DNA of 64,000 nucleotides from the IMG/VR virus record IMGVR_UViG_3300035670_000025. One strand, written 5' to 3'. This DNA is from a virus. The position numbers and the translations under genes were made by a program. Position 1 is the first letter of the stretch, and the number at the start of each line of letters is the position of its first letter. Positions 33,651 through 48,934 of this stretch are shown here, one piece after another. The notes under the pieces are model-generated. The model made no database searches, was not told the DNA's origin, and saw nothing but the letters and a program-made list of their open reading frames with translations.

Positions 33651-33669
33651 TTAAAGGTTATAATATAAC

Positions 33670-34547: not shown

Positions 34548-34986
34548 TATAAACGAACTATACAAAGATGTGTATCAATTAAAAGCAGATATGCAACATG
34601 TCAATTCATTAATTGACAGATTAGATATCGCAATAAGTCAATTATCTAATGTTTCAAAAAATATTTCTGAATTATTGGCAGTTCAAGGAACTCGTCTACA
34701 ATATCAAGAAAAAATGTCTGAACAGTTATCACAACTTATTCAAAATACAGACAAAGAATCTGAAAAAAGCAATAATGAAATTGAAAGAAATTTCAATCGT
34801 AAAATTGATGACCTAGAATCTGAATTGCTTTCAGAAATCAAATCTTTAAAAGAAGAAAATAAAAAACAGCACGAAGAAATGAAAACCAAATTAGCACTTG
34901 TTGAAAAATGGATATGGGTTGTTACAGGTGGTGCTGCTGTTATTGGATTTCTTATCTCAAAAGCATCTTCATACATAAAATTCTAA
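34534..34986 (+). CDS. Coiled-coil protein with C-terminal TM helix
   Basis: Heptads then EKWIWVVTGGAAVIGFLI. Confidence 0.65.
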   Translation: MAENNINELYKDVYQLKADMQHVNSLIDRLDIAISQLSNVSKNISELLAVQGTRLQYQEKMSEQLSQLIQNTDKESEKSNNEIERNFNRKIDDLESELLSEIKSLKEENKKQHEEMKTKLALVEKWIWVVTGGAAVIGFLISKASSYIKF

Positions 34987-35067
34987 AATCTTACATTTTT
35001 CACTTGACAAGGTTTTTTTTGCCTGTATAATGACTATGTCAATGAAATGTAATGTAGGATTTATATT

Positions 35068-36111
35068 ATGATGTGGTTAGATAAAAAGTATATTCTATTA
35101 CTATCAAGTCAATTACCTCACTTTAAACAAAAATCAGAAAACTTGTTTAACTTTCGTTGTATCTTATGTGGTGATTCAAAAACCAATAAGAACAAAACAA
35201 GAGGTTATATCTATTTCAAATCTGGTAAATATGTTTACCATTGTCATAATTGCAATGCTTCACATCATTTTGTGACAATACTAAAGAAAATTAATTCAAC
35301 CCTGTATGATCAATATCTACAAGAAAAACTATCAAGTTCTAATGAACAACCAACGGTTGAACAAAAGAAAACTGTAGTAAAAAATTCTAATTCATACTTA
35401 TCACAACTTAAAAAAGTATCTCAATTAAATGCAGATCACCTATGCAAAAAGTATGTAGTATCTAGGCAAATTCCCACTACAATCCATTATAAATTATACT
35501 ACTGTTCCAAGTTCAAGGAATGGACAAATAATATACTCCCAGGAAAATTTAATGATCTGAAGATAGATTATCCAAGACTTATTATTCCAATGTTTTGGAC
35601 TGATGGATCTTTGATAGGATATCAAGGTAGAGCATTACATCCTAATGATTCTATCAGATATATTACTATTATGCTTGATGAAACGAAACCTAGAGTATAT
35701 GGCATAGATACAACCGATTTTAACTATAAGTATTACATATTTGAAGGACCAATAGATTCAATGTTTATTTCTAATTCTATTGCTACTTGTGGTGGTCAAC
35801 TTACACGAGAGATGGATTTGTTGAATAAAAATGTCTCAAATGCTGTTGTGGTTTATGATAATGAACCAAGAAATAAAGACATTGTGAAGAACATATTGAC
35901 TGCAATTCAAAAGGGATATAAGGTTTGCCTGTGGCCACCATCTATGGAGCAGAAAGATATAAATGATATGATATTGAAGAAAGTCTCTGGTACTTATTGT
36001 AAGACTGAAGTTATACAAAGAGCAGCAGAAAAAATCAAATCAATCATTGATGATAATACATATCAAGGATTGGAAGCAGAACTTAAATTTTCGTCATGGA
36101 GAAAAGTATGA
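35068..36111 (+). CDS. gp61: DNA primase gp61
   Basis: RCILCGDS..CHNC, GYQGRAL, EGPIDSMF, DNEPRN, KDINDM. Confidence 0.95.
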   Translation: MMWLDKKYILLLSSQLPHFKQKSENLFNFRCILCGDSKTNKNKTRGYIYFKSGKYVYHCHNCNASHHFVTILKKINSTLYDQYLQEKLSSSNEQPTVEQKKTVVKNSNSYLSQLKKVSQLNADHLCKKYVVSRQIPTTIHYKLYYCSKFKEWTNNILPGKFNDLKIDYPRLIIPMFWTDGSLIGYQGRALHPNDSIRYITIMLDETKPRVYGIDTTDFNYKYYIFEGPIDSMFISNSIATCGGQLTREMDLLNKNVSNAVVVYDNEPRNKDIVKNILTAIQKGYKVCLWPPSMEQKDINDMILKKVSGTYCKTEVIQRAAEKIKSIIDDNTYQGLEAELKFSSWRKV

Positions 36112-36166
36112 CATATAAAGTTTAATTTTAATTGGTCTTTAAAATATTCAAATGGAGACTAATGTT

Positions 36167-36721
36167 ATGCATTACAGGAAAATATGGGAATCATATCACA
36201 ACGAATCTATACCAGAAAAATATGAAATACATCATGTTGATGGTAATAGAAATAACAACCACCCAGATAATCTTTTATGTGTTTCTATCGAAGAACATTT
36301 AAAAATACATAAAACACAAGAAGATTGGGGGGCAGTACAAGCAATTCTTGCTAGAATGGAAAATAGAGATGGTATAATTGAAGCAGCAAGAAATTTTCAA
36401 TTGCAAAAATTGCAAGAAAATACTCACAATTTTCAACGCATGAGTAAAAAGAGACGAACTGAAATAAGTAAAAAAACTATGAAAAAAAGATTGAAAATAG
36501 AAGGGGTTGCTTTTTTAGGTATAGATGATGTTAAATTGAATAGTAAAAAAGCAGGGTTGGTTGCAGCACAAAAAAAATCAGGATTTTTAAACCCTGATAC
36601 TGATAAACACGGAAGCAATTATGTTAAAGATACTTTTTGGTGGACGAATGTTGAAACCGGAGTAAGAATTAGAAGTAAATTTGCTCCAAATGAAAAATGG
36701 AAAAAAGGAATGAAGTTATGA
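36167..36721 (+). mobile_element. Free-standing HNH homing endonuclease
   Basis: YEIHHVDGNRNNN.PDNL...EEH..IH. Confidence 0.85.
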
Positions 36722-37404
36722 CATATGATTGGCAAAAAGTAAAACTCGTAGCAATAACTCAACCAGATATTGATAATGAACAAGGAATAAAAATTAATGC
36801 AGAAGAATTTATTGCATATTGCGCCAGAGTTTCAAATAAATCAAATCAGATGAATGTTCAAACAGCAAACAAATTGTTGAAATATTGCATAACAAATAAT
36901 CATTGGAGCATTTTTGAAATGGTATCTTTAACCATGGAAATTGAGACTACCCGAGATATTGGTAGACAGATTCTACGACATCGTTCATTTAGTTTTCAGG
37001 AGTTTAGTCAACGATATGCAGAATCTGGTGAAGAATTTCCTGATAAGGATATGAGAGAATGCAGACTACAAGATATGAAGAATCGTCAGAATTCTCTTGA
37101 AACTGATAATGATATGCTGCGGATGAATTGGTTGCTTGCACAAACGAGAGTGCAAGAAATTGCATTGCGTGAATATAATTGGGCAATTAAAGCAGGTATT
37201 GCTAAAGAGGTAGCAAGATCAATTCTTGCAGAAGGTCTTACTATGTCCAGAATCTATATGAGTGGGACACTTAGGTCTTGGATTCATTATTGCCAATTGA
37301 GAATGGAAAATGGAACACAAAAAGAACATCAGGATATTGCTGACAAGTGTTGGAATATTCTGCTTGAAAAGTTTAAGTTTCTGAAGGATTTGAAAAATGA
37401 ATAG
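36718..37404 (+). CDS. thyX: Flavin-dependent thymidylate synthase
   Basis: HWSIFE, RQILRHRSFSFQEFSQRY, AKEVAR, TQKEH. Confidence 0.95.
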   Translation: MTYDWQKVKLVAITQPDIDNEQGIKINAEEFIAYCARVSNKSNQMNVQTANKLLKYCITNNHWSIFEMVSLTMEIETTRDIGRQILRHRSFSFQEFSQRYAESGEEFPDKDMRECRLQDMKNRQNSLETDNDMLRMNWLLAQTRVQEIALREYNWAIKAGIAKEVARSILAEGLTMSRIYMSGTLRSWIHYCQLRMENGTQKEHQDIADKCWNILLEKFKFLKDLKNE

Positions 37405-37915
37405 TATAGAAAGAATGAGAGAAAAAGAAAAACTTCTCACATATGAAGAAGTAAAAGAAATGTTTGATTACGATTCAGAGAAAGGAATATTGATTTGGAA
37501 AACACGCCCGATTAACTCAAAATATCTCATTGGAACTGTTGCTGGTAGTTTACACTCAACAGGATATGTAACTATAAGAATAAAAAAAATAGAATATAAA
37601 TCTCATAGAATTATATGGTTGTTGATGACGGGTAAATGGCCAGAAAACCAAATAGATCACATAAACGGCATTAGAAATGATAATCGTTTTTGTAATTTGA
37701 GAGAAGCAACCGGTTCTCAGAATAATGCCAACACTCCGAGAAGAATCAACGTTTCTGGATATAAAGGAGTTTCTAAAGAGCGCAAAAAATGGAGAGCAAG
37801 AATAAGTTTAAATAATAAACCGATGTCTATAGGATATTATGATACTCCAGAAGAAGCACATGCGGCATATGTTGCCAAAGCAAAAGAACTATTTGGAGAC
37901 TACGCAAAAGTTTGA
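37397..37915 (+). mobile_element. HNH endonuclease with C-terminal AP2 domain
   Basis: HRIIW, IDHINGIRNDNR..NLR, SGYKGV..KWRARI..GYY.TPEEAH.AY. Confidence 0.9.
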
Positions 37916-37958
37916 TATTATGAAGGTTTGAACTAACAATAAAACAAAGAGGTAAAAA

Positions 37959-39851
37959 ATGGATTTGTACCAGCAGTACATACACAAGAGCAGATACGCA
38001 AGATATCTTTCTAATGAAAATCGTAGAGAACATTGGCAAGAAACTGTGTCACGATATGTAGACTTTATGCAAGAACATATTAAGACACAATGTAATTATA
38101 CATTATCAAATTCTCTCAAAATAGAAATTTATGAAGCAATTTTGAACATGGAAGTAATGCCTTCTATGCGAGCAATGATGACTGCTGGAAAGGCACTAGC
38201 AAGAGATAATACTGCTGGATACAATTGCTCATACCTTCCTGTAGATGATCCTAAAGCATTTGATGAATGTATGCATATTCTGATGAATGGTACAGGTGTT
38301 GGATTTTCTGTAGAAAGACAATATATCAATAAATTGCCAGAAATCCCAGAACAAATGTTTGATTCTGATACAACAATTGTTGTTAAAGATTCAAAAGAAG
38401 GTTGGGCAAAAGCATTGAGAATGCTTGTAGCACTTCTATATTCTGGAGAAATTCCAAAGTGGGATTTGTCAAAGGTTCGTCCAGCAGGAGCACCACTCAA
38501 AACATTTGGTGGAAGATCATCTGGTCCAGCACCGATGAATGAACTATTTAAGTTTGTTATTCGTATCTTTACAAATGCAAGAGGACGAAAACTAACATCA
38601 CTTGAATGTCATGATATCATGTGTAAGATTGCTGAAGTGGTTGTTGTAGGTGGAGTTCGTCGTTCTGCAATGATTTCACTATCAAATCTATCAGATGATA
38701 GAATGAGAAATGCAAAGTCAGGAGCATGGTGGGAAGCAAATGTTCAACGAGCACTATCGAATAATTCTGCTGTCTATACAGAGAAACCCGAAGTCGGAAT
38801 GTTTCTTGAAGAATGGTTATCACTATATCAGTCGAAAAGCGGAGAACGTGGTATCTTTTCTAGAGAAGCTTCACAAAAAGTAGCAAAGAAAAATGGTCGT
38901 AGAGATGCAAATCAAGAATTTGGAACAAATCCATGTTCAGAAATTATTCTTCGTCCATATCAATTTTGCAATCTAACTGAAGTGATTGTTCGTGTTGATG
39001 ACACTGAAGAATCATTAGCAAGAAAAGTACGTTTAGCAACTATTCTTGGTACGTTCCAATCTACTCTTACATATTTTCCATATCTAAGAAAGATTTGGCA
39101 AAAGAATACAGAAGAAGAAAGATTGCTTGGTGTTTCACTAACTGGAATTTATGATTCTGCATTGACAAATAATTATAAAGATCCAGAACTACCACACAGG
39201 TTAGAAATGCTAAGACAGATTGCAGTTGATACAAATCAACAGTTTGCAGAAGAATTAGGAGTTCCTGTTTCTGCTGCTATTACTGCTGTCAAACCTTCTG
39301 GCACTGTTTCGCAATTGGTTGATGCTGCTTCTGGTATTCATCCAAGACACGATCCATATTATTTCAGAAGAGTTCGTTCTGATAATAAAGATCCGTTGAC
39401 TAAGCATATGATTGATGCTGGAATTCCACATGAACCAGATGTTACTAAACCAGATTCAACAACAGTTTTCACATTTCCAAAGAAAGCACCAGATAATGCT
39501 ACAATGAGAAGTGATGTTTCTGCCATCGATCACCTAGAACTATGGTTGAAGTATCAGCGTCATTGGTGTGAACATAAACCTTCTGTAACAATTTCTGTTA
39601 AGGAAGAAGAATGGCCAACTGTTGGTGCATGGGTATGGGAACACTTTGATGAAATGTCTGGTGTATCATTCTTACCGCATGATGGAGGAACATATCGTCA
39701 AGCACCATATGAAACTGTTTCAAAGGAACAGTATGAAGAACTATTGTCTATGATGCCAACTAACATTGATTGGACACAATTGGTTGAAAAGGAAGACAAT
39801 GTTGAAGGTGTACAGACATTAGCATGTGTTGCTGGTGGTTGTGAGATTTAA
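37959..39851 (+). CDS. nrdJ: Class II (B12-dependent) ribonucleotide reductase
   Basis: VMPSMR, YNCSY, GGVRRSA, TNPCSEI, KPSGTVSQL, C-term CVAGGCEI; no nrdB adjacent. Confidence 0.93.
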   Translation: MDLYQQYIHKSRYARYLSNENRREHWQETVSRYVDFMQEHIKTQCNYTLSNSLKIEIYEAILNMEVMPSMRAMMTAGKALARDNTAGYNCSYLPVDDPKAFDECMHILMNGTGVGFSVERQYINKLPEIPEQMFDSDTTIVVKDSKEGWAKALRMLVALLYSGEIPKWDLSKVRPAGAPLKTFGGRSSGPAPMNELFKFVIRIFTNARGRKLTSLECHDIMCKIAEVVVVGGVRRSAMISLSNLSDDRMRNAKSGAWWEANVQRALSNNSAVYTEKPEVGMFLEEWLSLYQSKSGERGIFSREASQKVAKKNGRRDANQEFGTNPCSEIILRPYQFCNLTEVIVRVDDTEESLARKVRLATILGTFQSTLTYFPYLRKIWQKNTEEERLLGVSLTGIYDSALTNNYKDPELPHRLEMLRQIAVDTNQQFAEELGVPVSAAITAVKPSGTVSQLVDAASGIHPRHDPYYFRRVRSDNKDPLTKHMIDAGIPHEPDVTKPDSTTVFTFPKKAPDNATMRSDVSAIDHLELWLKYQRHWCEHKPSVTISVKEEEWPTVGAWVWEHFDEMSGVSFLPHDGGTYRQAPYETVSKEQYEELLSMMPTNIDWTQLVEKEDNVEGVQTLACVAGGCEI

Positions 39852-40483
39852 TGCCATATTTAAATCATAACCTGCCGACATTTACTTGTTTCATCAGAAA
39901 TGAATATTTGTTCAATCACGAAAAAGGACACGGGGAATTTACCCCGTGTGATGTTCATTCTGTTGCATCTATAGAAAAGAGAGTTCCATTATTTGAGGCA
40001 TTTTTAGAAAATGGGGTCAATTGGACTCGTAGACCTATAATTGCTTTTTGTTGGAAAAAATCTGCACCAGTCGTTGCATTGGAAAATGCAATGTATTGGG
40101 ATTGTTTTTCTCCATATATAGATGTTCAAATTAGATCAAGATTATCAGGACTTAAAGCAGAACTTATAACCCCACAAAACACAAAAGAATTTGGTACATA
40201 TATGTTTACTTTGGATTGGTCTTGGGAAAATAAATCTACATTAGATACTAATTTTTCAGAGAGTCCTGAACACAAATGTGGACATTTTTTCAAAATGGAT
40301 AATGGTAATTTTTATTGCTATCCAAATAATAGAATCATTTGGTTTGATGATGCTTGGGTAGAAAATAGAATAACTCAAAATCCAGGATATATCATAGATC
40401 AAACTGTCTATAGTGTTGAAAATAAAAGACAAATTGAAACAAATAACAATTATATATATGGAATAAAATCAGATGTTAAATAA
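39851..40483 (+). CDS. Conserved hypothetical protein
   Basis: WDCFS, Y.FTLDW, EHKC.H, GN...YPNNR. Confidence 0.7.
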   Translation: MPYLNHNLPTFTCFIRNEYLFNHEKGHGEFTPCDVHSVASIEKRVPLFEAFLENGVNWTRRPIIAFCWKKSAPVVALENAMYWDCFSPYIDVQIRSRLSGLKAELITPQNTKEFGTYMFTLDWSWENKSTLDTNFSESPEHKCGHFFKMDNGNFYCYPNNRIIWFDDAWVENRITQNPGYIIDQTVYSVENKRQIETNNNYIYGIKSDVK

Positions 40484-40769
40484 AACATTGATTGTTGTTT
40501 TTTTATTATATCTGTTTTCTCCAGCATCTTTATTTTTTATATTAAGAGAAAATGTTTTTTCTGGTATTGAATATCATGATACAGAAATTACGCAATTGGA
40601 AGAAATCAAAATAGTTGTTGAAGAAAAATTTATTCCGCAATCATTACTTCGTGGTGAAGATATGACAATGTTTTATTTTAGAAATATTAGACCAACTTTG
40701 CCAGATTATAATAAAAATTATAGACCTGTTGTTGTTAAACCAAAACAAAAAAGCATACGAACTAATTAA
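40473..40769 (+). CDS. Hypothetical membrane-anchored protein
   Basis: N-terminal hydrophobic segment. Confidence 0.5.
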   Translation: MLNKTLIVVFLLYLFSPASLFFILRENVFSGIEYHDTEITQLEEIKIVVEEKFIPQSLLRGEDMTMFYFRNIRPTLPDYNKNYRPVVVKPKQKSIRTN

Positions 40770-40780
40770 GGAGAATTTAA

Positions 40781-41026
40781 ATGGGATGGGCATCTGGATC
40801 AAGTTTGTTTTCTGATATCATTGAAGCATTTAATGATTGTGATGTTGATGTTGAAACAAAAAAAGCATTATATGAAAAGTTGATTCCAATTTTTGAAGAT
40901 GAAGATTGTGATACATTGCAAGAATGTTTGGGTGAAGATTCTGTTTTCGATCAAGTATATTATGCGTTATATCCAAAAGATGAAGATGATGATTTCTTAG
41001 ATTTTGAAAATGAAGATGGATGCTAA
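40781..41026 (+). CDS. Acidic hypothetical protein
   Basis: MGWASGS..D.DCDT..EC; GGAG RBS. Confidence 0.65.
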   Translation: MGWASGSSLFSDIIEAFNDCDVDVETKKALYEKLIPIFEDEDCDTLQECLGEDSVFDQVYYALYPKDEDDDFLDFENEDGC

Positions 41027-41028
41027 TT

Positions 41029-41775
41029 ATGTTAAAAACAAAATATAAGACTTTATTTGTTTCGGATATTCATCTAGGAACAAAGGCAAGCCAGACTACA
41101 CAATTTTTAGAATTTTTAAAAACCATTGATTGTGACAAAATATATCTGGTTGGTGATATAATTGATGGTTGGTCTATGTCTAGAACCAAATATTGGTCTC
41201 AACAACATAATGATACTATTCAGAAATTGTTAAGACAAGCAAGAAAAGGCACCGAAATTGTTTATATACCAGGAAATCATGATGAATTTTTAAGACATTT
41301 TTGTGATAAAAGTTTTCGGTTTGGTAATATTAGACTTGTTGATGATGATATACACATCACTTCTTCAGGCAAAAAATATTTGATAATACATGGTGATCAA
41401 TTTGATACTATTATCAGAAATGCCAAATGGGTAACAAAACTTGGTTCTTGGGCATATGAAATGTCAATCAATCTTAATATTGCTGTAAATTTTATTAGAA
41501 AAATTTTTGGATTGCCATTTTGGTCCCTTAGTTCTTGGGTTAAATATAAAGTTAAAAAAGCAGTCAATTTTATAGGTGCATATGAAGAAACTTTGAGCAA
41601 TTACGCAAAATATAGAGGTGTTGATGGTGTGATATGTGGTCATATTCATCATCCAAATATAACCATGATAAATGGTGTTGAATATTTAAATTGTGGAGAT
41701 TGGGTAGAAAGTTGCTCAGCAATAGTAGAAACACTAGACGGAAATTTTGAGTTAATCAAATGGAAACAATCTTAA
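41029..41775 (+). CDS. LpxH-like metallophosphoesterase, likely PlcP-type phospholipase C
   Basis: SDIHLG, LVGDIIDGW, PGNHDE, HGDQFD, CGHIH, NCGDWVES; overlaps GT4 gene. Confidence 0.75.
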   Translation: MLKTKYKTLFVSDIHLGTKASQTTQFLEFLKTIDCDKIYLVGDIIDGWSMSRTKYWSQQHNDTIQKLLRQARKGTEIVYIPGNHDEFLRHFCDKSFRFGNIRLVDDDIHITSSGKKYLIIHGDQFDTIIRNAKWVTKLGSWAYEMSINLNIAVNFIRKIFGLPFWSLSSWVKYKVKKAVNFIGAYEETLSNYAKYRGVDGVICGHIHHPNITMINGVEYLNCGDWVESCSAIVETLDGNFELIKWKQS

Positions 41776-42743
41776 TAGCAACAGATGCTTGGGAACCTCA
41801 AGTAAATGGTGTGGTAACCACACTAAAACAGATACAGAAAAATGCAATCAATCATAGATTGGTTTTTATTACACCTAATGATTTCACAACATTACCAAAT
41901 CCTTTTTATTCAGAAATTAGATTATCTGTCCCATCAAATAAAAAAATAAATGATCTGATTAAAAACATAAACCCTGATTACATACACATTTCTACAGAAG
42001 GTCCTATTGGATTCTATGTGAGAAAATGGTGTTTAAAAAACAATAAGAAATTTACTACCAGTTATCATACTAAGTTTCCAGAGTTGCTTCAAAAACAATT
42101 AAATATACCAACATGGATAACACGGTGGTATTTCAAACAGTTTCATGGTTCAGGTGCAGGCATGTTTTGTGCTACATCGTCGTTAAAAAAAGAATTAATT
42201 GCACAAGGATATAAAAATATTATTGATTGGTCTCGTGGGGTAGACACAGATAAATTTAAACCATCTTATAAGTCAAAAAAAACTCTACCAACTTTTCTGT
42301 ATGTTGGTAGAGTTTCTAAAGAAAAGAATTTGGAAGCATTTCTTGATTTAGATTTACCAGGAAAAAAAATAGTCGTTGGTGATGGTCCAGAATTAAATAA
42401 TTATAAGAAAAAATATCAAAATGTTAATTTCGTGGGCATAAAACAAAATTTAGAATTAATTGAATATTATCAAATGTCTGATGTATTTTGTTTTCCATCC
42501 AAATCAGATACTTTTGGTTTAGTTATATTAGAAGCATTGGCATGTGGTTTGCCTGTTGCTGCTTATCCTGTTACTGGTCCTAAAGACATTATTACAAGTA
42601 AAACCGGTGTTCTTTCTGATGATTTATATCAAGCATGTATAGATTGTTTGGAATTAAAATCAGACGATTGTGTTGCATTAGCAAAAAATTATGATTGGAC
42701 AGAAGTAACAAAAGATTTTATATCTTCATTGGTCAATATTTAA
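41760..42743 (+). CDS. GT4 glycosyltransferase, Agt-like glycolipid synthase
   Basis: IATDAWEPQVNGVV, HISTEGP.G, YHTKFPE, RGVD, VGRVSKEKN, DTFGLVILEA. Confidence 0.8.
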   Translation: METILIATDAWEPQVNGVVTTLKQIQKNAINHRLVFITPNDFTTLPNPFYSEIRLSVPSNKKINDLIKNINPDYIHISTEGPIGFYVRKWCLKNNKKFTTSYHTKFPELLQKQLNIPTWITRWYFKQFHGSGAGMFCATSSLKKELIAQGYKNIIDWSRGVDTDKFKPSYKSKKTLPTFLYVGRVSKEKNLEAFLDLDLPGKKIVVGDGPELNNYKKKYQNVNFVGIKQNLELIEYYQMSDVFCFPSKSDTFGLVILEALACGLPVAAYPVTGPKDIITSKTGVLSDDLYQACIDCLELKSDDCVALAKNYDWTEVTKDFISSLVNI

Positions 42744-42779
42744 GTACATAAATACCTTCATTAAAACAATGGAGGTATT

Positions 42780-43166
42780 ATGTGGTTATATAATGAAACA
42801 GAATTTACTGAAGATATGATTGGTGATAATGTTGGATTTGTTTATATAATAACAAATTTAACCAATGATAAAATGTATGTTGGCAAAAAATCCTTCACAA
42901 AATCAAAAACTTATCAGAAAAATAAAAAGAAGAAAAAAACTAGAGTATCATCTGATTGGATAACATATACGGGATCTAATGATCAATTAAATGAAGATAT
43001 TAAAAATGGAGATCAAATAAAAAAAGAGATCATTCATTTATGTAAGTCAAAGGGGTGGATGTCTTATATGGAAACGAAAGAAATTCTTGTTCGTGATTGT
43101 TTAATAGATGATATGTATTATAATACATGGTTGTCAGCAAGAATAAGAAGAACACATTTAAAATAA
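42780..43166 (+). CDS. GIY-YIG nuclease
   Basis: GFVYIITN...YVGKK, DW..Y.GS, YYN. Confidence 0.8.
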   Translation: MWLYNETEFTEDMIGDNVGFVYIITNLTNDKMYVGKKSFTKSKTYQKNKKKKKTRVSSDWITYTGSNDQLNEDIKNGDQIKKEIIHLCKSKGWMSYMETKEILVRDCLIDDMYYNTWLSARIRRTHLK

Positions 43167-43170
43167 GGAT

Positions 43171-43413
43171 ATGAATATGACACATGAAGCATATTGTGAA
43201 GATTTCTTTAAACCTGCAAATGAAAATGTTGTTAAAATAGTTGAACAAATATCTATGTGGAGTAGAAAATCTTATGTGTTATATCCCACTGATGTTTTGA
43301 ATATGTTAATTGAACACAATTTGATATCTCAAGTTGAAGTAGAAAAAATTGTTAATGATACTCGACAAAAACCACTTGACTTAACTCTCCCACAGAGATA
43401 TATTGGTGAATAG
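43171..43413 (+). CDS. Hypothetical protein
   Basis: ORF. Confidence 0.45.
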   Translation: MNMTHEAYCEDFFKPANENVVKIVEQISMWSRKSYVLYPTDVLNMLIEHNLISQVEVEKIVNDTRQKPLDLTLPQRYIGE

Positions 43414-43450
43414 AACGGGTTGAGGTTTTGCGTACTCGTTCAACTAATAT

Positions 43451-43528
43451 GTGGATGTAGTCCAATAGGTAGGAGACACGAAACTTAAAATTTTGACAGT
43501 GTGGGTTCGAATCCCACCATCCACACCA
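43451..43528 (+). tRNA. tRNA-Leu(TAA), short variable region
   Basis: GTGGATG/CATCCAC acceptor, loop CTTAAAA, TTCGAAT, CCA. Confidence 0.85.
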
Positions 43529-43554
43529 GTTTTTATATATAAGGAGATTTTATT

Positions 43555-43785
43555 ATGAAGAAAAATATGATTGAGCACGTTTTTGTTTTAAAAGTTTATG
43601 CTGAAAGTTTCATGGAAGAATTTGGTGAAAATGAAGGAAGAATGCACGATGCGCAATATCTTGATTATACACTTAATGGTATAAAAGAATGTTTGCTAGA
43701 AGAATTTGATAATGCTAAAGATATGTTTAATATTAATTTAGTTAAATCTACTTATTTAAAACATAATGACAGTGAATTGGTATAA
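43555..43785 (+). CDS. Hypothetical protein
   Basis: GGAG RBS. Confidence 0.55.
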   Translation: MKKNMIEHVFVLKVYAESFMEEFGENEGRMHDAQYLDYTLNGIKECLLEEFDNAKDMFNINLVKSTYLKHNDSELV

Positions 43786-43799
43786 TCTTTTTTAAACAT

Positions 43800-43883
43800 G
43801 GTAGATATGGCAAATGAGGTGCCCTGCGGCTCATAACCGTATGTCGAAAGACCGAGTTGGTTTGATTCCAACATCTACCACCA
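43800..43883 (+). tRNA. tRNA with CAT anticodon (Met or Ile2), long variable arm
   Basis: GGTAGAT/ATCTACC, loop CTCATAA, V-arm GTC-GAAA-GAC, T-loop TTTGATT, CCA. Confidence 0.75.
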
Positions 43884-43888
43884 TTTAT

Positions 43889-43979
43889 AGACCTATAGCA
43901 TAACGGTAATGCACCGGTTTTATAAGCCGTAACTCCAGATTAGAGGGTTATTCAGGTTCGAATCCTGATAGGTCTACCA
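43889..43979 (+). tRNA. tRNA-Ile(TAT), long variable arm
   Basis: AGACCTA/TAGGTCT, loop TTTATAA, 21-nt variable region, TTCGAAT, CCA. Confidence 0.75.
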
Positions 43980-44003
43980 GTATCAACAACAAATGGAGTT
44001 ATT

Positions 44004-44231
44004 ATGAGCGAACAAGTCAAATCCAAAGAAAAGACATACACACAAGAAGAACTAAAAAAACTTCTGACCGAGCAACTAAATGAGTATCGAGCAAAACATC
44101 CATTTGTCGAATATCGATATGGAGTCGATCACACAGGCAGATACGACATTCACATCAAGATTGTTCTTGGTGATGTATCCAAAGGAGAAGAAATGGTCAG
44201 GAAGTTTCAACAGATTATCGGAGAACTATGA
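44004..44231 (+). CDS. Hypothetical protein
   Basis: GGAG RBS; coupled to pstS. Confidence 0.6.
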   Translation: MSEQVKSKEKTYTQEELKKLLTEQLNEYRAKHPFVEYRYGVDHTGRYDIHIKIVLGDVSKGEEMVRKFQQIIGEL

Positions 44232-45265
44232 TGAAGTATAAATTTTTGTTGCCGTTGGCATTAATCTTGATATATATTCCACAATCAGAAGCACGTGATC
44301 AAATTCGTGTTGTTGGTTCATCAACTGTATATCCATTTACAACAACCGTTGCTGAAAACTTTGGACGAAATACACGTACAAAGACACCAATTGTAGAATC
44401 TACAGGCACAGGTGGTGGATTTAAACTTTTTTGTGCAGGTGTTGGAACATCACATCCTGATGTTTCAAATGCTTCTCGTGCAATCAAGAAGTCAGAATTC
44501 GAAATGTGTGTGAAGAATGGTGTAACAGAGATTGTTGAAATCAAAGTTGGTTTTGATGGTCTTACTATCACACAATCAAAGAATGGACCAAATATCAAAC
44601 TATCACTAGCACAAGTATTTCTTGCGCTAGCAGAAAAGGTTCCTGATAAGTCTGGTAATCTGATTCCAAATCCATATAAGAACTGGTCAGATATTGATCC
44701 GCAACTACCAAATGTAAGAATTGAGGTTCTTGGTCCACCTCCAACTTCTGGTACTCGTGATTCATTTCATGAACTATTCATGGAACCAGGAGCAGAAATA
44801 GTTCTCAAGGATCTAAAAAAGTCTAATCGCAAGGCATTTGAAACAGCATGGAAGTCTATTCGTCAAGATGGTGCATATGTAGAAGCAGGTGAAAATGATA
44901 ACGTAATAGTTCAAAAGTTACAAGCAAATCGTAATGCTTTTGGAATCTTTGGTTATTCATTCCTTGAAGAGAACATCTCAACCCTTCGTGGTGTAGCAAT
45001 TGACGGAGTTGTTCCTGATTTTGACAATATTTCAAGTGGTAGATATAAGGGTGCTAGACCACTATTTGTTTACATCAAGAAGCAACATATTGGTGTAATT
45101 CCTGGACTAAAGGAATTCGCAGAAGAATATGTATCTAATCGTGCAATTTCTCAAGATGGTTATCTTGCACGAAAGGGTCTAGTAGCACTTCCAAAGAAGG
45201 AACTTGATAAAGTTGTGAATAATGTTAAGAATATGATTTCCTTAACCACAAAAGATGTGAAATAA
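44228..45265 (+). CDS. pstS: Phosphate-binding protein PstS
   Basis: Signal peptide; RDQIRVVGSSTVYPF, ESTGTGGG..FC, GPPPTSGTRD. Confidence 0.93.
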   Translation: MMKYKFLLPLALILIYIPQSEARDQIRVVGSSTVYPFTTTVAENFGRNTRTKTPIVESTGTGGGFKLFCAGVGTSHPDVSNASRAIKKSEFEMCVKNGVTEIVEIKVGFDGLTITQSKNGPNIKLSLAQVFLALAEKVPDKSGNLIPNPYKNWSDIDPQLPNVRIEVLGPPPTSGTRDSFHELFMEPGAEIVLKDLKKSNRKAFETAWKSIRQDGAYVEAGENDNVIVQKLQANRNAFGIFGYSFLEENISTLRGVAIDGVVPDFDNISSGRYKGARPLFVYIKKQHIGVIPGLKEFAEEYVSNRAISQDGYLARKGLVALPKKELDKVVNNVKNMISLTTKDVK

Positions 45266-45377
45266 TAGTGAACTAAATAACCCTACACCAAAAAGGTGTA
45301 GGGAATACCATCAAACAGAACAGTTTAACAAATATCAATCACATCAACTGTTCAAAAATAATAAAAAAGGAGCAACT

Positions 45378-45893
45378 ATGAAAAGTTATGTAACAATAAC
45401 TCTAATAGGTCTTTTTGTATTTTTTTCAGGAGTAAATACATCACAAGCAAGACCACATCCAACAACAATTGAAACCCAAGAAACTCGTAAGGTTATCAAA
45501 AAGAAAAAAAAGAAAAGAAGAATTTTACCACCAAAAACATCACAAATTGTGGCAGATTCTGGTTCTCCTATTGATAAAGCAAGAGCATATATAGGAATGA
45601 ATGCTAGACAACTTGGGTTGCCACTACGGTTATGGTGTGCAGATTTTATGAATATGTTGTTTGGAGGAAGAGATAGAAGAGCAATTTCATATGCTAGAAG
45701 AGGTTCACCCGCATCTCATGGATGCACAAATTGCATAGCAGTTACAAAAAGAAAAGGTGGACACCACGTTGGAATTGTGAAAGGATATGATGCTAAAGGA
45801 AATCCAATATTGATTTCTGGAAATCACGGAAGAAGAGTTGGTATTGGAACTTATTCTAAAAAAGTAGTTATAGCATATAGATATATGAGGTAA
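45378..45893 (+). CDS. Secreted CHAP/NlpC-like peptidoglycan peptidase
   Basis: Signal peptide; LWCADFMN, HVGIV, ISGNH. Confidence 0.7.
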   Translation: MKSYVTITLIGLFVFFSGVNTSQARPHPTTIETQETRKVIKKKKKKRRILPPKTSQIVADSGSPIDKARAYIGMNARQLGLPLRLWCADFMNMLFGGRDRRAISYARRGSPASHGCTNCIAVTKRKGGHHVGIVKGYDAKGNPILISGNHGRRVGIGTYSKKVVIAYRYMR

Positions 45894-45895
45894 TA

Positions 45896-46294
45896 ATGAA
45901 AACTAATTTTGAGATGGTAAAGGAGTTTCATAAATCATTCCTTAAGAATGATCCTGAATCTCCTATTGATATTACCAAAGAAACTCCTGAACTTTTAAAT
46001 ATGGTTAAGTTGCGTAAAACTTTGATTGAAGAAGAATATAATGAAGTTATGTATGAGTTAACAGAAGTAGAATCAATTGAACATCTAGCAAAAGAACTTG
46101 TGGATCTGTTATATGTAGTGTATGGTACTGGTTCGGAATTTGGCATTGATCTTGATGCATGTTTTGCCGAAGTCCATCGTTCAAATATGTCAAAATTAGG
46201 AGATGATGGCAAACCAATCATCAGAGATGATGGCAAATTCCTAAAGTCTGAAAAGTATGAAAAACCAAATTTGAAAAGGATTCTAAATGTATAA
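45896..46294 (+). CDS. MazG-like NTP pyrophosphohydrolase
   Basis: LIEEEY.E..KELVDLLYVVYG..EVHRSNMSK. Confidence 0.85.
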   Translation: MKTNFEMVKEFHKSFLKNDPESPIDITKETPELLNMVKLRKTLIEEEYNEVMYELTEVESIEHLAKELVDLLYVVYGTGSEFGIDLDACFAEVHRSNMSKLGDDGKPIIRDDGKFLKSEKYEKPNLKRILNV

Positions 46295-46667
46295 GATCGT
46301 TGTTACTACTCTAGCAGCAATTGTTCTTGCTGGATGTTCTACAACAATTGTAAAGCGTGAAATTAGAACTACACCAGAACATGAACACAACCAAGTCATT
46401 GAAAAACGTGTGACTTTTATGAGACTTGTAGAATTTATTCGTGTGAATCAGCATGTAAAACCAACTGAAGAACTCAAGAAGGAATTACATGCAATGATTA
46501 CATTGACAGGTTTGCGGTATTCTTGTTATTCTGGAAATCGTTGCTTTCTTCATAAGGAAGATATGAAGATTCAAATTCATCCGGAATATGTATATATTGA
46601 GTATCCAGATAAGTCTTATCGTAAAATTTACGATCCAAATGATGCAATTAGAGTAATTTATTCATAG
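46287..46667 (+). CDS. Putative lipoprotein
   Basis: LAGC lipobox. Confidence 0.6.
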   Translation: MYKIVVTTLAAIVLAGCSTTIVKREIRTTPEHEHNQVIEKRVTFMRLVEFIRVNQHVKPTEELKKELHAMITLTGLRYSCYSGNRCFLHKEDMKIQIHPEYVYIEYPDKSYRKIYDPNDAIRVIYS

Positions 46668-46676
46668 GAGTACAAA

Positions 46677-46766
46677 ATGTCGCATCCGCATAAAAATAGG
46701 CCACGTAAAGGTCGTAGAAAGTTAGGTAGTAAGAAACGGAAAGCAAGAGCAAACAGAAAGAAGTAA
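46677..46766 (+). CDS. 29-aa very basic peptide (not in ORF track)
   Basis: AGGAG RBS; MSHPHKNRPRKGRRKLGSKKRKARANRKK. Confidence 0.55.
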   Translation: MSHPHKNRPRKGRRKLGSKKRKARANRKK

Positions 46767-46815
46767 TTATTTGCCATACAGAATCAACACTGTATGGCAT
46801 TTTTATTGGTGTGCT

Positions 46816-47271
46816 ATGAATATAAAAGAAGTAAGACATTTCATACAAAATCAATCTCTTGAATCAAAAATCTATATTGGATGTGATTCGGAAGTATTTA
46901 AAAGAAATGATAAATGGTTAATCAATTATTATGCTGTTGTTGTTATTCATAAGAATAAACACAGTGGATGTAAAGTTTTTGGACAAAAGACTACAGAAGT
47001 TGATTATACCAAAGATAAGAGAAAACCACTTTACAGATTGATGCAAGAGGTATATAAAGCATCAGAATTATATTTGTTGTTGGAAGAATCTATTGGAGAA
47101 AGAGAAGTAGAAGTTCATTTAGATTTAAATCCATCAAAAAAACATATTTCAAATCAAATTGTAGATCAAGCAATAAGTTATATTAAAAGTACATGTAATG
47201 TTGTTCCGATGATAAAACCCAATGCTTGGTGTTCGTCTTCAGTTGCTGATAGGTTACTTAAAATATCATAA
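46816..47271 (+). CDS. RNase H-like YkuK family protein
   Basis: IYIGCDS, RL.QEV, EVHLD.N, KP.AW..S.VAD. Confidence 0.8.
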   Translation: MNIKEVRHFIQNQSLESKIYIGCDSEVFKRNDKWLINYYAVVVIHKNKHSGCKVFGQKTTEVDYTKDKRKPLYRLMQEVYKASELYLLLEESIGEREVEVHLDLNPSKKHISNQIVDQAISYIKSTCNVVPMIKPNAWCSSSVADRLLKIS

Positions 47272-47282
47272 AGGAGGATTAT

Positions 47283-47510
47283 ATGTCTGTAGTAAATAAA
47301 CTTAAAACTAAGGCAGAAAGAGAACGATATTTGATGTATAAACTTCCAGATTATAAACTTCTGGAAGAACAAGCGGTTGAAGAGATTCAAAATTTACAAA
47401 ATGTACTTGAAGAAATCAAAAAGTGGTATCATATACAAATGATGAATCATCATAGTTTTGATTCAAAAAATGCAGACTTACAAGGATTGGCAAGAATTCT
47501 CAAAATTTAA
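47283..47510 (+). CDS. Hypothetical protein
   Basis: AGGAGG RBS. Confidence 0.6.
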   Translation: MSVVNKLKTKAERERYLMYKLPDYKLLEEQAVEEIQNLQNVLEEIKKWYHIQMMNHHSFDSKNADLQGLARILKI

Positions 47511-47520
47511 GGAGATAAAA

Positions 47521-48216
47521 ATGGTTAGTGTACCAATCAATACTGGTGTTCAAGATGTCGGACTACGCAATTACTTTGTTAGTATTTACAACAATATGAC
47601 AATGGGTCTTATTTTCAGTGGTGGTATTGCATACTGGATGTCTACAAATCCTGCTCTTATGGCAACAATTTGGAAGACTCCACCATTAGCATATGCAGTA
47701 ATCTTTGCACCTCTTGTTCTATCACTAGGATTTATGTTTCTCATTGAAAGAATCTCTGCGGCAGCAGCACGAGTTTTCTTTTATGTTTTTGCTGCTGCTA
47801 TGGGGGTTAGTTTATCATCTATCTTTATGATTTATCAACTTGGTAGTATCTTTCAGGTATTCTTTATTACATCAGCAACTTTTCTTACAATGTCAGTATA
47901 TGGTTATACAACCAAAAAGGATTTGACATCATTGGGGTCATTTCTTATGATGGGTGTTATTGGTATCATTCTTGCAGGTATTGTAAATCTATTTCTACAA
48001 AGTTCAGCACTAGCATTTGCAATTAGTTGCATTTCTGTTATTGTATTTACTTTGCTTGTAGCATTTGATACTCAGCAATTGAAGGATACATATTATACAA
48101 CATATGGTGAGGAAAGAGAGAAGTTAGGTGTTGTTGGTGCTCTGAGTTTGTATATTAACTTTATTAATATCTTTATTAGTTTGTTACAATTGCTTGGTGA
48201 GAAAAATAGTGATTGA
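47521..48216 (+). CDS. Bax inhibitor-1/YccA membrane protein
   Basis: DVGLR.Y...YN.M, YGYTTKKDL, AFDTQ.LK, GALSLY.NFIN.F. Confidence 0.9.
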   Translation: MVSVPINTGVQDVGLRNYFVSIYNNMTMGLIFSGGIAYWMSTNPALMATIWKTPPLAYAVIFAPLVLSLGFMFLIERISAAAARVFFYVFAAAMGVSLSSIFMIYQLGSIFQVFFITSATFLTMSVYGYTTKKDLTSLGSFLMMGVIGIILAGIVNLFLQSSALAFAISCISVIVFTLLVAFDTQQLKDTYYTTYGEEREKLGVVGALSLYINFINIFISLLQLLGEKNSD

Positions 48217-48250
48217 CAAGAATTAGAAGGGTTGATATATATAATGAATT

Positions 48251-48325
48251 GCTCCATTAGTTTAGTGGTCAGAACACTGGGCTTTCAATCCGGTAGCGAG
48301 AGTTCGATTCTCTCATGGAGCGCCA
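48251..48325 (+). tRNA. tRNA-Glu(TTC)
   Basis: GCTCCAT/ATGGAGC, loop CTTTCAA, CCA. Confidence 0.9.
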
Positions 48326-48330
48326 AATAA

Positions 48331-48404
48331 GCAGAGTTGGCATATTGGTTGTGTCCCAGACTTCCAATCTGGCTAAATGAGTTCGATTCTCATACTCTGC
48401 TCCA
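48331..48404 (+). tRNA. tRNA-Gly(TCC)
   Basis: GCAGAGT/ACTCTGC, loop CTTCCAA, U73, CCA. Confidence 0.9.
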
Positions 48405-48499
48405 ACTAAATAAGTATAGTCTCGTGTACCATGAGTACAAGGAGCATTCGGTGTTGTTGATGGAACCTCGGCAACACCAGCATTAACAGAGGACCAATA

Positions 48500-48934
48500 A
48501 TGAAAAGTAATAAAAACATTGATTACTATTTGTCAGAAATGGTAAATGGTAATACAGTAGAAGTATTTGCCGAAAAACTATCATCTAATGATGATTTGAT
48601 TGAGAAATATGAATTTACATTCAAGATTAATCAATCAACATCTAAACAAGTATCTTTATACATTCCTGATTTGTATAAAATATTTGTGATTGTGCAAAAA
48701 TCATTGCTAGAATACATAAATGAAAATGTATTAAATAAAATAAATGATAACAAAATTGTACAATTGATGGTTGAAGCAGAAGGTAAAAATAAAACAGAAG
48801 TAGATTACAAAGATAAGTTATATGATTACCATTTCGACCGATTAGCAAGAAAATATACTGAAATGGATAATGATGTGTGTTGTGAACATACTAGAAATAA
48901 TTTATCACATTTTTTGACCTTCTCAAAGATTTGA
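48500..48934 (+). CDS. Hypothetical protein
   Basis: GAGG RBS. Confidence 0.6.
   Translation: MKSNKNIDYYLSEMVNGNTVEVFAEKLSSNDDLIEKYEFTFKINQSTSKQVSLYIPDLYKIFVIVQKSLLEYINENVLNKINDNKIVQLMVEAEGKNKTEVDYKDKLYDYHFDRLARKYTEMDNDVCCEHTRNNLSHFLTFSKI

What the first reader, a model, noticed from the sequence alone, without database searches (positions are those of the whole stretch)
41029..42743. Phage-encoded PlcP-like / Agt-like pair: possible host membrane lipid remodelling
An LpxH-like phosphoesterase overlaps a GT4 gene with the TDAW.PQVNGVV signature. Established: in Alphaproteobacteria PlcP hydrolyses phospholipids to DAG under phosphate starvation, and Agt converts DAG to P-free glycolipids. Inference: the phage frees phosphate from the host membrane for DNA synthesis and may alter the cell surface.
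Basis: partly seen in the sequence, partly recalled or inferred. Interest (0 to 1): 0.72.

Follow-up and report, generated by a model that had tools for sequence, protein, structure and literature searches.

The report
Phage-borne PlcP-Agt membrane lipid-swap genes
An uncultured T4-like freshwater phage carries its own copies of the two bacterial enzymes that strip the phosphate head off membrane lipids and put a sugar in its place, so it probably rebuilds its host's membrane and frees phosphorus during infection; public annotation calls the first gene the lipid A gene lpxH.

Summary
ORF 41029-41775 is a metallophosphoesterase and ORF 41760-42743 is a GT4 glycosyltransferase. They overlap by 16 nt.

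The phosphoesterase is a PlcP, not LpxH:
- It is 51-52% identical to the S. meliloti and P. aeruginosa (PA3219) PlcPs.
- It sits in their clade, split from 31 true LpxH with SH-aLRT 100.
- It has GNHD where every LpxH has GNRD.

The GT4 belongs to the Agt/GTcp glycolipid-synthase clade. It is 47% identical to its only strong Agrobacterium match. All 14 residues shown essential by mutagenesis in the SAR11 enzyme are kept, with one Thr-to-Ser change.

The plcP-agt order is shared with 58 of 80 bacterial loci. In phages, 77 of 80 Agt-like genes lie within 3 kb of a plcP. Both genes are under purifying selection.

No Pho box was found. The pair sits in a gapless array behind the ribonucleotide reductase gene, about 1.5 kb upstream of pstS.

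Phosphorus mining is a plausible purpose but remains inferred. I found no paper on phage PlcP; viral gene surveys list "lpxH" under LPS.

This scan has noted the same cassette before on other phage DNA (226 notes, at least 163 genomes).

The parts
41029..41775 (+). plcP-like gene: intracellular phospholipase C type metallophosphoesterase, 248 aa (alternative ATG at 41020)
   Evidence: PF00149. 51.9% identical to S. meliloti PlcP and 50.8% to P. aeruginosa PA3219. Inside the PlcP clade, apart from LpxH. GNHD signature. Metal-binding residues D13, H15, D43, N83, H121, H205, H207 are intact.
41760..42743 (+). agt-like gene: GT4 diacylglycerol glycosyltransferase, 327 aa
   Evidence: PF00534 and PF13439. 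47% identical to the only strong A. tumefaciens match and 40% to P. aeruginosa Agt1 PA3218. GTcp key residues are conserved. AF2 model with pLDDT 92.8 has a GT-B fold.
41760..41775 (+). 16-nt overlap between the end of plcP and the start of agt (translational coupling is likely)
   Evidence: Read from the sequence. In P. aeruginosa the two genes overlap by 4 nt.
39851..41026 (+). Three small ORFs of unknown function (210, 98 and 81 aa) that fill the space between the reductase gene and plcP without gaps
   Evidence: No Pfam match. Conserved in the same order in relative L002. They leave no intergenic room for a dedicated promoter or Pho box.
37959..39851 (+). Ribonucleotide reductase gene (context; named by eye from the translation, no family search run) at the head of the co-directional array
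   Evidence: 630-aa ORF. 59-64% identical homologues lie beside plcP in related phages.
42780..43166 (+). SegE-type GIY-YIG homing endonuclease directly downstream (context; marks a plastic slot)
   Evidence: PF19835, E 1.5e-33. It follows plcP, or plcP-agt, in relatives L002, L024, L026 and L050.
44228..45265 (+). pstS phosphate-binding protein gene (context: phosphorus-acquisition theme)
   Evidence: PF12849, E 1.2e-40. 46% identical to the Mosig pstS, which lies next to the Mosig plcP homologue.

Best explanation
The two genes are a phage-borne copy of the bacterial PlcP-Agt lipid-renovation pathway.

ORF A is a Mn/metal-dependent phospholipase C of the PlcP family. It should cut the phospho-head group (phosphoethanolamine, glycerol-3-phosphate, phosphocholine) off host membrane glycerophospholipids, leaving diacylglycerol (DAG).

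ORF B is an Agt/GTcp-type retaining GT4 enzyme. It should transfer glucose, glucuronic acid or galactose from a UDP-sugar to that DAG, giving phosphorus-free glycolipid that keeps the bilayer intact.

In this phage the pair is translationally coupled. It sits in a gapless, co-directional array behind the thymidylate-synthase and ribonucleotide-reductase genes and about 1.5 kb upstream of pstS. It is therefore most likely made early or in mid infection under phage control, not under the host PhoB.

Inferred benefit: the released head-group phosphorus feeds nucleotide synthesis for a roughly 151-kb genome while the membrane stays functional.

Shown here: family membership, intact catalytic residues, conserved gene linkage, purifying selection. 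Inferred: substrates in vivo, timing, and that phosphorus supply is the selected benefit.
For: PlcP identity:
- The window protein scores 58 bits on the LpxH model TIGR01854. That falls in the low-scoring second class (31-58 bits) of a bimodal distribution across 121 Pseudomonadota genomes, where true LpxH scores 198-369 bits.
- tblastn with the window protein gives 208-293 bits against that second class and at most 59 against true LpxH.
- The ML tree of 90 proteins splits LpxH from PlcP with SH-aLRT 100. The window lies with S. meliloti PlcP and PA3219.
- All 59 PlcP-clade rows have GNHD; all 31 LpxH rows have GNRD.
- Identity of 51-52% to characterised PlcPs exceeds the 46-47% they share with each other (PMC8528852).

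Agt identity:
- There is one match at E <= 1e-10 in the A. tumefaciens genome: 47% identity, E 6.9e-95.
- The motifs are GRVSKEKN and FPSKSDTFG.
- Residues G17, G81, G84, H103, S158, R159, R184, K189, D250, T251, F252, G253, E258 and W313 correspond to the residues proven essential in GTcp.

Linkage:
- 58 of 80 bacterial plcP loci have this GT4 directly downstream.
- 77 of 80 viral Agt-like loci have plcP within 3 kb, mostly abutting.

Selection and context:
- dN/dS is 0.056 and 0.14.
- pstS, ThyX and a MazG-like gene lie nearby.
- There is no late-promoter TATAAATA on the + strand between 32377 and 48958.
Against: - No enzyme activity, lipid data or transcript data exist for this phage; no RNA run holding the sequence was listed.
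- No E. coli-type Pho box lies anywhere near. The window holds 6 weak matches against 9.2 expected by chance, none between 36.5 and 46.5 kb. So the link to phosphate starvation rests only on gene content.
- 26 of the 80 related viral plcP loci examined show no adjacent glycosyltransferase with my queries, and the isolate Mosig has no GT4-like gene beside its plcP (not tested for GT2). The GT4 is therefore not obligatory.
- No phosphatase that would release inorganic phosphate from phosphoethanolamine was identified in the window.
- The host is unknown.
Confidence: 0.6

Rival explanations
1. The enzymes are PlcP and Agt biochemically, but the selected benefit is a changed membrane rather than phosphorus supply. 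Glycolipid-rich membranes might block DNA entry or attachment of competing phages (superinfection exclusion), tune lysis, or keep the membrane stable after host lipid synthesis is shut off.
For: The pair has no Pho box and is probably expressed in every infection. Related phages have recruited unrelated glycosyltransferases next to the same plcP: GT4 downstream, a small GT2 downstream, or a GT21-like GT2 upstream. That suggests selection on the glycolipid product itself. Published work shows that lipid composition changes phage attachment in Ruegeria (PMC9938194, listed).
Against: 26 of the 80 viral plcP loci examined show no adjacent glycosyltransferase with my queries, and in Mosig the plcP homologue lies beside pstS with no GT4-like gene. 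That fits head-group release as the core function. pstS lies about 1.5 kb away here.
Confidence: 0.2
2. ORF A is a genuine LpxH and ORF B an LPS-core glycosyltransferase, as automatic annotation says. The phage would then boost or alter lipid A and LPS synthesis.
For: LpxH is the best NCBIfam match, the closest solved sequence and the closest solved fold. Public records name homologues 'UDP-2,3-diacylglucosamine hydrolase'.
Against: Scores are 58-67 bits against cut-offs of 134-190. The clade is separate, with a long, fully supported branch. The motif is GNHD, not GNRD. Genomes with a true LpxH carry this gene as a second, distinct paralogue. No match to the LpxH model was found in A. tumefaciens at E <= 1e-5, although it carries this gene; 141 of 401 sampled Alphaproteobacteria carry it too. 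The GT4 has the Agt-specific Asp dyad and the DAG-binding residues.
Confidence: 0.03
3. The pair acts on non-lipid substrates in the phage setting: a phosphodiesterase for a nucleotide or signalling molecule, and a glycosyltransferase that decorates DNA, a virion protein or a small metabolite.
For: Metallophosphoesterases and GT4 enzymes are versatile. The viral sequences form their own clades (SH-aLRT 94 and 97) away from the sampled bacteria, so some functional drift is possible. The helical cap of ORF A is modelled with low confidence.
Against: The cap insertion has the same length as in bacterial PlcP (83 residues). All DAG-pocket residues of GTcp are kept. The near-obligate plcP linkage of the viral GT4 (77 of 80) mirrors the bacterial operon. 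Purifying selection is strong.
Confidence: 0.07

Closest known systems
Bacterial PlcP-Agt lipid-renovation operon (S. meliloti PlcP SMc00171; Phaeobacter MED193 PlcP; SAR11 HTCC7211 PlcP and Agt/GTcp; P. aeruginosa PA3219-PA3218). Sources: PMC4796936, PMC8528852, PMC8231724.
   Same: Same two enzyme families in the same order (plcP then agt), with overlapping or abutting reading frames. Identity to characterised members is 40-52%. All catalytic and substrate-binding residues are kept.
   Different: It is carried by a lytic-type T4-like phage. Both proteins fall in viral and metagenomic clades separate from all sampled bacteria. No Pho box and no promoter space lie upstream; the pair is embedded in a phage nucleotide-metabolism gene array.
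LpxH (UDP-2,3-diacylglucosamine diphosphatase of lipid A synthesis)
   Same: Same calcineurin-like fold, with a helical cap insertion of similar length. It is the closest solved structure (Foldseek E about 1e-11).
   Different: About 20% identity. Scores lie below the family cut-offs. GNHD replaces GNRD. It is a separate clade and coexists as a paralogue with true LpxH in several genomes.
Phage phosphorus-stress auxiliary genes (pstS, phoA, phoH of cyanophages and pelagiphages)
   Same: Host-derived genes in T4-like aquatic phages that bear on phosphorus supply. pstS lies in the same region of this phage and next to the Mosig plcP homologue.
   Different: Those genes import or scavenge external phosphate. 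This pair would draw on the host's own membrane. I found no publication describing it.

Membership tests
PlcP (intracellular phospholipase C of lipid renovation) | Calcineurin-like metallophosphoesterase with all metal-binding motifs intact | tested here: met
   PF00149. D13, H15, D43, N83, H121, H205 and H207 are invariant across 38 homologues and align to the LpxH metal ligands.
PlcP (intracellular phospholipase C of lipid renovation) | Groups with experimentally characterised PlcPs and apart from LpxH in a phylogeny | tested here: met
   ML tree of 90 rows: the split has SH-aLRT 100. The window lies in the clade that holds S. meliloti PlcP (L213) and PA3219 (L214). The bit scores are bimodal.
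PlcP (intracellular phospholipase C of lipid renovation) | Sequence identity to characterised members within the family's own range (46-47% among them, PMC8528852) | tested here: met
   51.9% to S. meliloti and 50.8% to P. aeruginosa over 96-97% of the length.
PlcP (intracellular phospholipase C of lipid renovation) | Glycolipid or betaine-lipid synthesis gene adjacent (type-2 context: agt downstream, PMC4796936) | tested here: met
   The GT4 overlaps the 3' end. The same order is seen in 58 of 80 bacterial loci and in P. aeruginosa.
PlcP (intracellular phospholipase C of lipid renovation) | Hydrolyses PE, PG or PC to DAG plus phospho-alcohol | not testable with these tools
   Needs an enzyme assay or mutant complementation.
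PhoB-regulated plcP-agt operon (regulatory unit of the bacterial system) | Pho box upstream and induction by phosphate starvation | tested here: not met
   No match to CTGTCATNNNNCTGTCAT with up to 3 mismatches lies between 36.5 and 46.5 kb; the whole window has 6 against 9.2 expected. There is no intergenic space upstream of plcP. Caveat: the host and its Pho-box consensus are unknown.
Agt / GTcp clade of GT4 (DAG glycosyltransferase) | GT4 enzyme of about 330 aa with a GT-B fold | tested here: met
   327 aa; PF00534 and PF13439. AF2 pLDDT 92.8. Top folds are BshA, MshA, PimA/PimB' and sucrose-phosphate synthase, TM 0.7-0.8.
Agt / GTcp clade of GT4 (DAG glycosyltransferase) | Catalytic dyad His104-Asp256, with Asp in place of the usual GT4 Glu | tested here: met
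   H103 and D250, in the motif FPSKSDTFG, conserved in the alignment with P. aeruginosa Agt1 and the Agrobacterium match.
Agt / GTcp clade of GT4 (DAG glycosyltransferase) | UDP-sugar motifs GRVAxEKN and FPSxTDTFG, plus Gly16, Gly82, Gly85, Arg190, Lys195, Thr257, Phe258, Gly259 and Glu264 | tested here: met
   The motifs are GRVSKEKN and FPSKSDTFG, each with one conservative change. G17, G81, G84, R184, K189, T251, F252, G253 and E258 are all present.
Agt / GTcp clade of GT4 (DAG glycosyltransferase) | DAG-pocket residues His104, Thr162, Arg163 and Trp320 | tested here: met
   H103, S158 (Thr to Ser, as in the Agrobacterium and most bacterial homologues), R159 and W313.
Agt / GTcp clade of GT4 (DAG glycosyltransferase) | 46-58% identity within the clade and under 25% to other GT4 enzymes (PMC8231724) | tested here: inconclusive
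   42-50% to agt genes next to bacterial plcP, 47% to the single A. tumefaciens match and 40% to PA3218. In the Agrobacterium genome all 12 other first-look candidates score worse than E 1e-10. I could not obtain the HTCC7211 sequence itself or confirm that the match is atu2297.
Agt / GTcp clade of GT4 (DAG glycosyltransferase) | Makes MGlc-DAG, GlcA-DAG or MGal-DAG from DAG and a UDP-sugar | not testable with these tools
   Needs heterologous expression and lipid mass spectrometry.
LpxH | Score above the curated equivalog cut-offs (TIGR01854 190 bits; NF003743 134 bits) | tested here: not met
   58.1 and 66.8 bits.
LpxH | GNRD motif (Arg replacing the canonical His) and membership of the LpxH clade | tested here: not met
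   The window has GNHD, and 31 of 31 LpxH rows have GNRD. It lies outside the LpxH clade.

The most novel reading that the evidence does not exclude
Aquatic phages run a host-independent phospholipid-to-glycolipid conversion as a routine part of infection. They treat the host's membrane as an internal phosphorus store for genome replication. The module is a conserved viral PlcP with interchangeable glycosyltransferase partners (GT4 Agt-like here; small GT2 or GT21-like enzymes in other lineages). This would be a class of auxiliary metabolic gene not yet described in the literature I could search, hidden in virome surveys under the label 'lpxH / LPS biosynthesis'.
Probability: 0.45. Interest if true: 0.75.

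Novelty: new variant of a known kind. Interest (0 to 1): 0.6.

Why it matters
Phosphorus limits both bacteria and their viruses in many lakes and oceans, and phage genomes are rich in it: a 150,937-bp genome holds about 302,000 phosphates.

Known phage phosphorus genes (pstS, phoA) work on external phosphate. A phage-encoded PlcP-Agt pair would add an internal source, the host membrane. It would also change the lipid composition of infected cells, with effects on lipid biomarkers, on grazing and on other phages.

The gene is common: at least 184 viral contigs carry the Agt-like gene and at least 94 carry a close plcP. It is currently filed as lipid A or LPS biosynthesis in viral gene surveys, so those pathway summaries are probably wrong for this gene.

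The hypothesis can be tested directly with existing mutants and with one cultured system, Pelagibacter phage Mosig, which carries the plcP homologue.

Tried and rejected
- **True LpxH:** rejected on scores, tree and motif.
- **Pho box:** searched with the E. coli-type consensus at up to 3 mismatches; nothing near, and fewer matches than chance. The sigma-70 promoter and terminator scan was at the chance level.
- **T4 late promoter TATAAATA:** none on the + strand between 32377 and 48958. I used this only as a weak hint of non-late expression.
- **Host or donor:** 401 evenly drawn alphaproteobacterial genomes gave at most 56% identity, and small-genome members were no closer. No recent donor and no host could be named. 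This tally includes one unpublished genome (G354, one of the 141 positives); no specific claim rests on it.
- **The look-up of encoding contigs:** I could not check whether the closest metagenomic homologues on long contigs are viral or bacterial.
- **Whole genome:** none is held for the window.
- **Control genomes of the genome search:** these give no loci. Characterised references came instead from mislabelled PLSDB records and from E. coli K-12.
- **Literature:** searches for phage plus PlcP found nothing. The Mosig and S-SRM01 genome papers were found but do not help: the S-SRM01 paper does not mention the gene, and I did not read the Mosig announcement.
Full report
**What is there**

The window has about 33% GC. 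Earlier work of this scan on the same contig describes it as an uncultured T4-like phage. The longest public contig with identical proteins is 150,937 bp.

On the + strand, ORF A (41029-41775, 248 aa; alternative ATG at 41020) and ORF B (41760-42743, 327 aa) overlap by 16 nt.

- ORF A is a calcineurin-like metallophosphoesterase (PF00149, E 2.7e-14). Its best named matches are the two LpxH equivalog models, but at 66.8 and 58.1 bits against cut-offs of 134 and 190.
- ORF B is a GT4 glycosyltransferase (PF00534 and PF13439). It carries TDAWEPQVNGVV at residues 8-19.

**Surroundings**

All genes called from 32790 to 48934 run on the + strand. In order they are:
- a Toprim primase-like gene, an HNH endonuclease, ThyX, and an HNH-AP2 endonuclease;
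- a 630-aa ORF at 37959-39851 that I read by eye as ribonucleotide reductase (no family search was run on it);
- three small unknown ORFs (210, 98 and 81 aa);
- plcP-like and agt-like;
- a SegE GIY-YIG homing endonuclease and an 80-aa ORF;
- tRNA-Leu, a 76-aa ORF, tRNA-Met and tRNA-Ile(tat);
- a 75-aa ORF, pstS (44228-45265), a 171-aa ORF, a MazG-like gene, an RNase H-like gene and a Bax1-I family membrane protein.

From the reductase gene to SegE there is at most about 36 nt between consecutive genes, and only 2 nt before plcP.

**Is ORF A a PlcP or an LpxH?**

I took named references from annotated records.
- E. coli K-12 lpxH came from the E. coli collection.
- The P. aeruginosa locus has a 'UDP-2,3-diacylglucosamine diphosphatase' that overlaps a glycosyltransferase gene, followed by cyaB. 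This is the PA3219-PA3218 arrangement of PMC8528852. That cyaB is PA3217 is from my memory.
- The only homologue on an S. meliloti chromosome record lies near the AHL synthase and LuxR genes. I take it to be SMc00171, because sinI and sinR are SMc00168 and SMc00170 from memory.

The window protein is 51.9% identical to the S. meliloti protein and 50.8% to the P. aeruginosa protein over 96-97% of its length. The characterised PlcPs share only 46-47% with each other.

A scan of 121 evenly drawn Pseudomonadota genomes with the LpxH model gave a bimodal result. There were 29 matches at 198-369 bits, and a second class of full-length matches at 31-58 bits, often in the same genome as a true LpxH. 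The window's 58 bits falls in that second class.

With tblastn, the second class scores 208-293 bits against the window protein and at most 48 against E. coli LpxH. The true LpxH set does the reverse.

An ML tree of 90 proteins (IQ-TREE, LG+C20, quick search) splits 31 LpxH from 59 PlcP-type proteins with SH-aLRT 100 on a branch of length 5. The window lies inside the PlcP side.

A simple signature separates the two families perfectly in these data. All 59 PlcP-side rows have GNHD, including both characterised enzymes and 23 viral rows. All 31 LpxH rows have GNRD.

The metal ligands are intact and align with those of H. influenzae LpxH. The AF2 model (pLDDT 80.5, with the helical cap poorly defined) finds LpxH structures first at about 20% identity and E about 1e-11. 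LpxH is thus the nearest solved fold but not the family.

**Is ORF B an Agt?**

The biochemical study of the SAR11 HTCC7211 enzyme GTcp (PMC8231724 and its preprint) defines the clade by four features:
- a His104-Asp256 dyad;
- the motifs GRVAxEKN and FPSxTDTFG;
- a set of Gly, Arg, Lys, Thr, Phe and Glu residues whose mutation abolishes activity;
- DAG-pocket residues His104, Thr162, Arg163 and Trp320.

The window protein has H103 and D250. Its motifs are GRVSKEKN and FPSKSDTFG. It also has G17, G81, G84, R184, K189, T251, F252, G253, E258, S158, R159 and W313. The only change among the mutagenesis-tested residues is Thr to Ser, which most bacterial homologues share.

In an A. tumefaciens genome the protein has exactly one match at E <= 1e-10 (47% identity, E 6.9e-95) among 13 first-look candidates. 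I could not confirm its locus tag, so identity with atu2297 is inferred. It is 40% identical to P. aeruginosa Agt1.

The AF2 model (pLDDT 92.8) is a GT-B fold. It is closest to the retaining GT4 enzymes BshA, MshA and PimA/PimB' and to sucrose-phosphate synthase, at 15-21% identity. No Agt structure has been solved.

**Linkage**

- The best 80 bacterial genome hits for ORF A are nearly all Alphaproteobacteria, largely rhizobia and their relatives (51-57% identity); a few records are titled only 'Proteobacteria'. Of these, 58 carry the ORF B homologue (mostly 41-50% identity over most of the length) directly downstream. This is the 'type 2' plcP-agt context of PMC4796936.
- Twelve of the 16 second-class loci taken from the sample of Pseudomonadota genomes have a GT4 homologue of at least 39% identity beside them.
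- At least 184 IMG/VR viral contigs encode a relative of ORF B. Among the best 80, 77 have a plcP homologue within 3 kb: 72 upstream, mostly overlapping or within a few dozen bases, and 5 downstream.
- Conversely, of 80 viral plcP loci only 18 have the Agt-like GT4.
- In another 32, a small GT2 glycosyltransferase (PF00535) follows plcP. In 4 close relatives (L003, L024, L026, L050) a different GT2 with a GT21 match sits just upstream.
- So 54 of 80 viral plcP genes abut some glycosyltransferase. The other 26 show none with my queries. The cultured pelagimyophage Mosig has no GT4-like gene beside its plcP, which lies next to pstS; I did not test Mosig for a GT2.

**Evolution**

- The closest relative, L002, has the same gene order and 87% and 74% identity for the two proteins.
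- dN/dS between the two phages is 0.056 and 0.14, with dS near saturation. Both genes are therefore maintained by selection.
- The viral PlcP rows form one group (SH-aLRT 94). The viral and metagenomic Agt rows form one group (SH-aLRT 97). Each is apart from the sampled bacteria.
- Among 401 alphaproteobacterial genomes, 141 have a homologue but none exceeds 56% identity. That tally includes one unpublished genome, G354, on which nothing specific depends.
- This points to an old acquisition that has spread among phages.

**Regulation and habitat**

- There is no E. coli-type Pho box near plcP or pstS, and no space for one.
- Promoter-like and terminator-like sites are at chance level.
- The T4 late-promoter octamer is absent from the + strand between 32377 and 48958.
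- I infer early or middle expression under phage control, unlike the PhoB-controlled bacterial operons and unlike the Pho-box readings reported by this scan for other phages.
- Near-identical DNA occurs in subsurface (the likely source), lake and river metagenomes. This is a freshwater or groundwater phage. The host is unknown.

**How it most likely works**

PlcP cleaves host phospholipids to DAG and a phospho-head group. Agt glycosylates the DAG with a UDP-sugar. The membrane keeps its bilayer while phosphorus, directly as glycerol-3-phosphate from PG, becomes available to a phage that is replicating a roughly 151-kb genome and that also carries pstS, ThyX and ribonucleotide reductase genes.

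The enzyme assignments are well supported; I put them at about 0.9. Phosphorus supply as the selected benefit is an inference, at about 0.55. A membrane-property benefit such as superinfection exclusion remains open, and the recruitment of three different glycosyltransferases next to viral plcP speaks for it.

**Novelty**

The bacterial pathway is well known. I found no paper in the searchable library that reports it in phages. Viral auxiliary-gene surveys list 'lpxH' under LPS biosynthesis (PMC10653327 and PMC9611531), and GenBank phage records name it a UDP-2,3-diacylglucosamine hydrolase.

This scan has already noted the same cassette on many other phage contigs (226 notes, at least 163 genomes). 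This window is one more instance. It differs in having no Pho box and a SegE-flanked slot behind the ribonucleotide reductase gene.

Noticed in passing
L045 and L051-L081 (about 5650-6400 in most of these loci): In a divergent viral plcP lineage (40-44% identical to the window), a small GT2 glycosyltransferase of about 240 aa (PF00535) follows plcP directly, often overlapping it, in place of the GT4. This is an alternative PlcP-glycosyltransferase cassette in 32 of 80 viral loci.
   Followed up: partly
L003:4294-4995; also L024, L026 and L050: Close relatives with the layout ribonucleotide reductase ... plcP - SegE lack the GT4. They carry a different GT2 with a GT21 match (the family of the processive DAG glycosyltransferase Pgt) immediately upstream of plcP. 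The same slot holds different sugar-transferase partners.
   Followed up: partly
L001 (Pelagibacter phage Mosig EXVC030M, record 94129-94866): A cultured pelagimyophage has a plcP homologue (46% identity) annotated as 'putative UDP-2,3-diacylglucosamine hydrolase'. It is divergently adjacent to its pstS and has no Agt-like gene, which makes it a ready experimental system.
   Followed up: partly
window 42780-43166: A SegE-type GIY-YIG homing endonuclease sits directly after agt. Homologues occupy the same position after plcP or plcP-agt in related phages. HNH endonucleases flank ThyX upstream (36152-36721 and 37397-37915). The region looks like a homing-endonuclease-rich plastic zone.
   Followed up: no
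window 47458-48216: A Bax1-I family (BI-1/YccA-like) integral membrane protein gene (PF01027, E 4.7e-54) lies in the same co-directional array. It is an unusual phage gene that might also bear on membrane integrity.
   Followed up: no
window 40473-40769: A 98-aa ORF two genes upstream of plcP has a hydrophobic N-terminus (a likely membrane anchor). It is conserved in position in L002 but only 34% identical.
   Followed up: no
PLSDB records CP090106.1 and CP075839.1 (L213, L214): CP090106.1 is a 3.72-Mb S. meliloti record labelled 'plasmid pSymB' that carries the AHL-synthase/LuxR region and the only plcP homologue, so it looks like the chromosome. CP075839.1 is a 160-kb P. aeruginosa 'plasmid' that carries the chromosomal azoR3 - PA3219 - PA3218 - cyaB region. 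Both annotate PlcP as LpxH.
   Followed up: no
Literature: PMC10734472: The phosphate islands of marine HIMB59 bacteria are described as holding 'LpxH' and 'RfaG' together with a diacylglycerol kinase. This is probably the same PlcP-Agt pair mislabelled in bacteria too.
   Followed up: no
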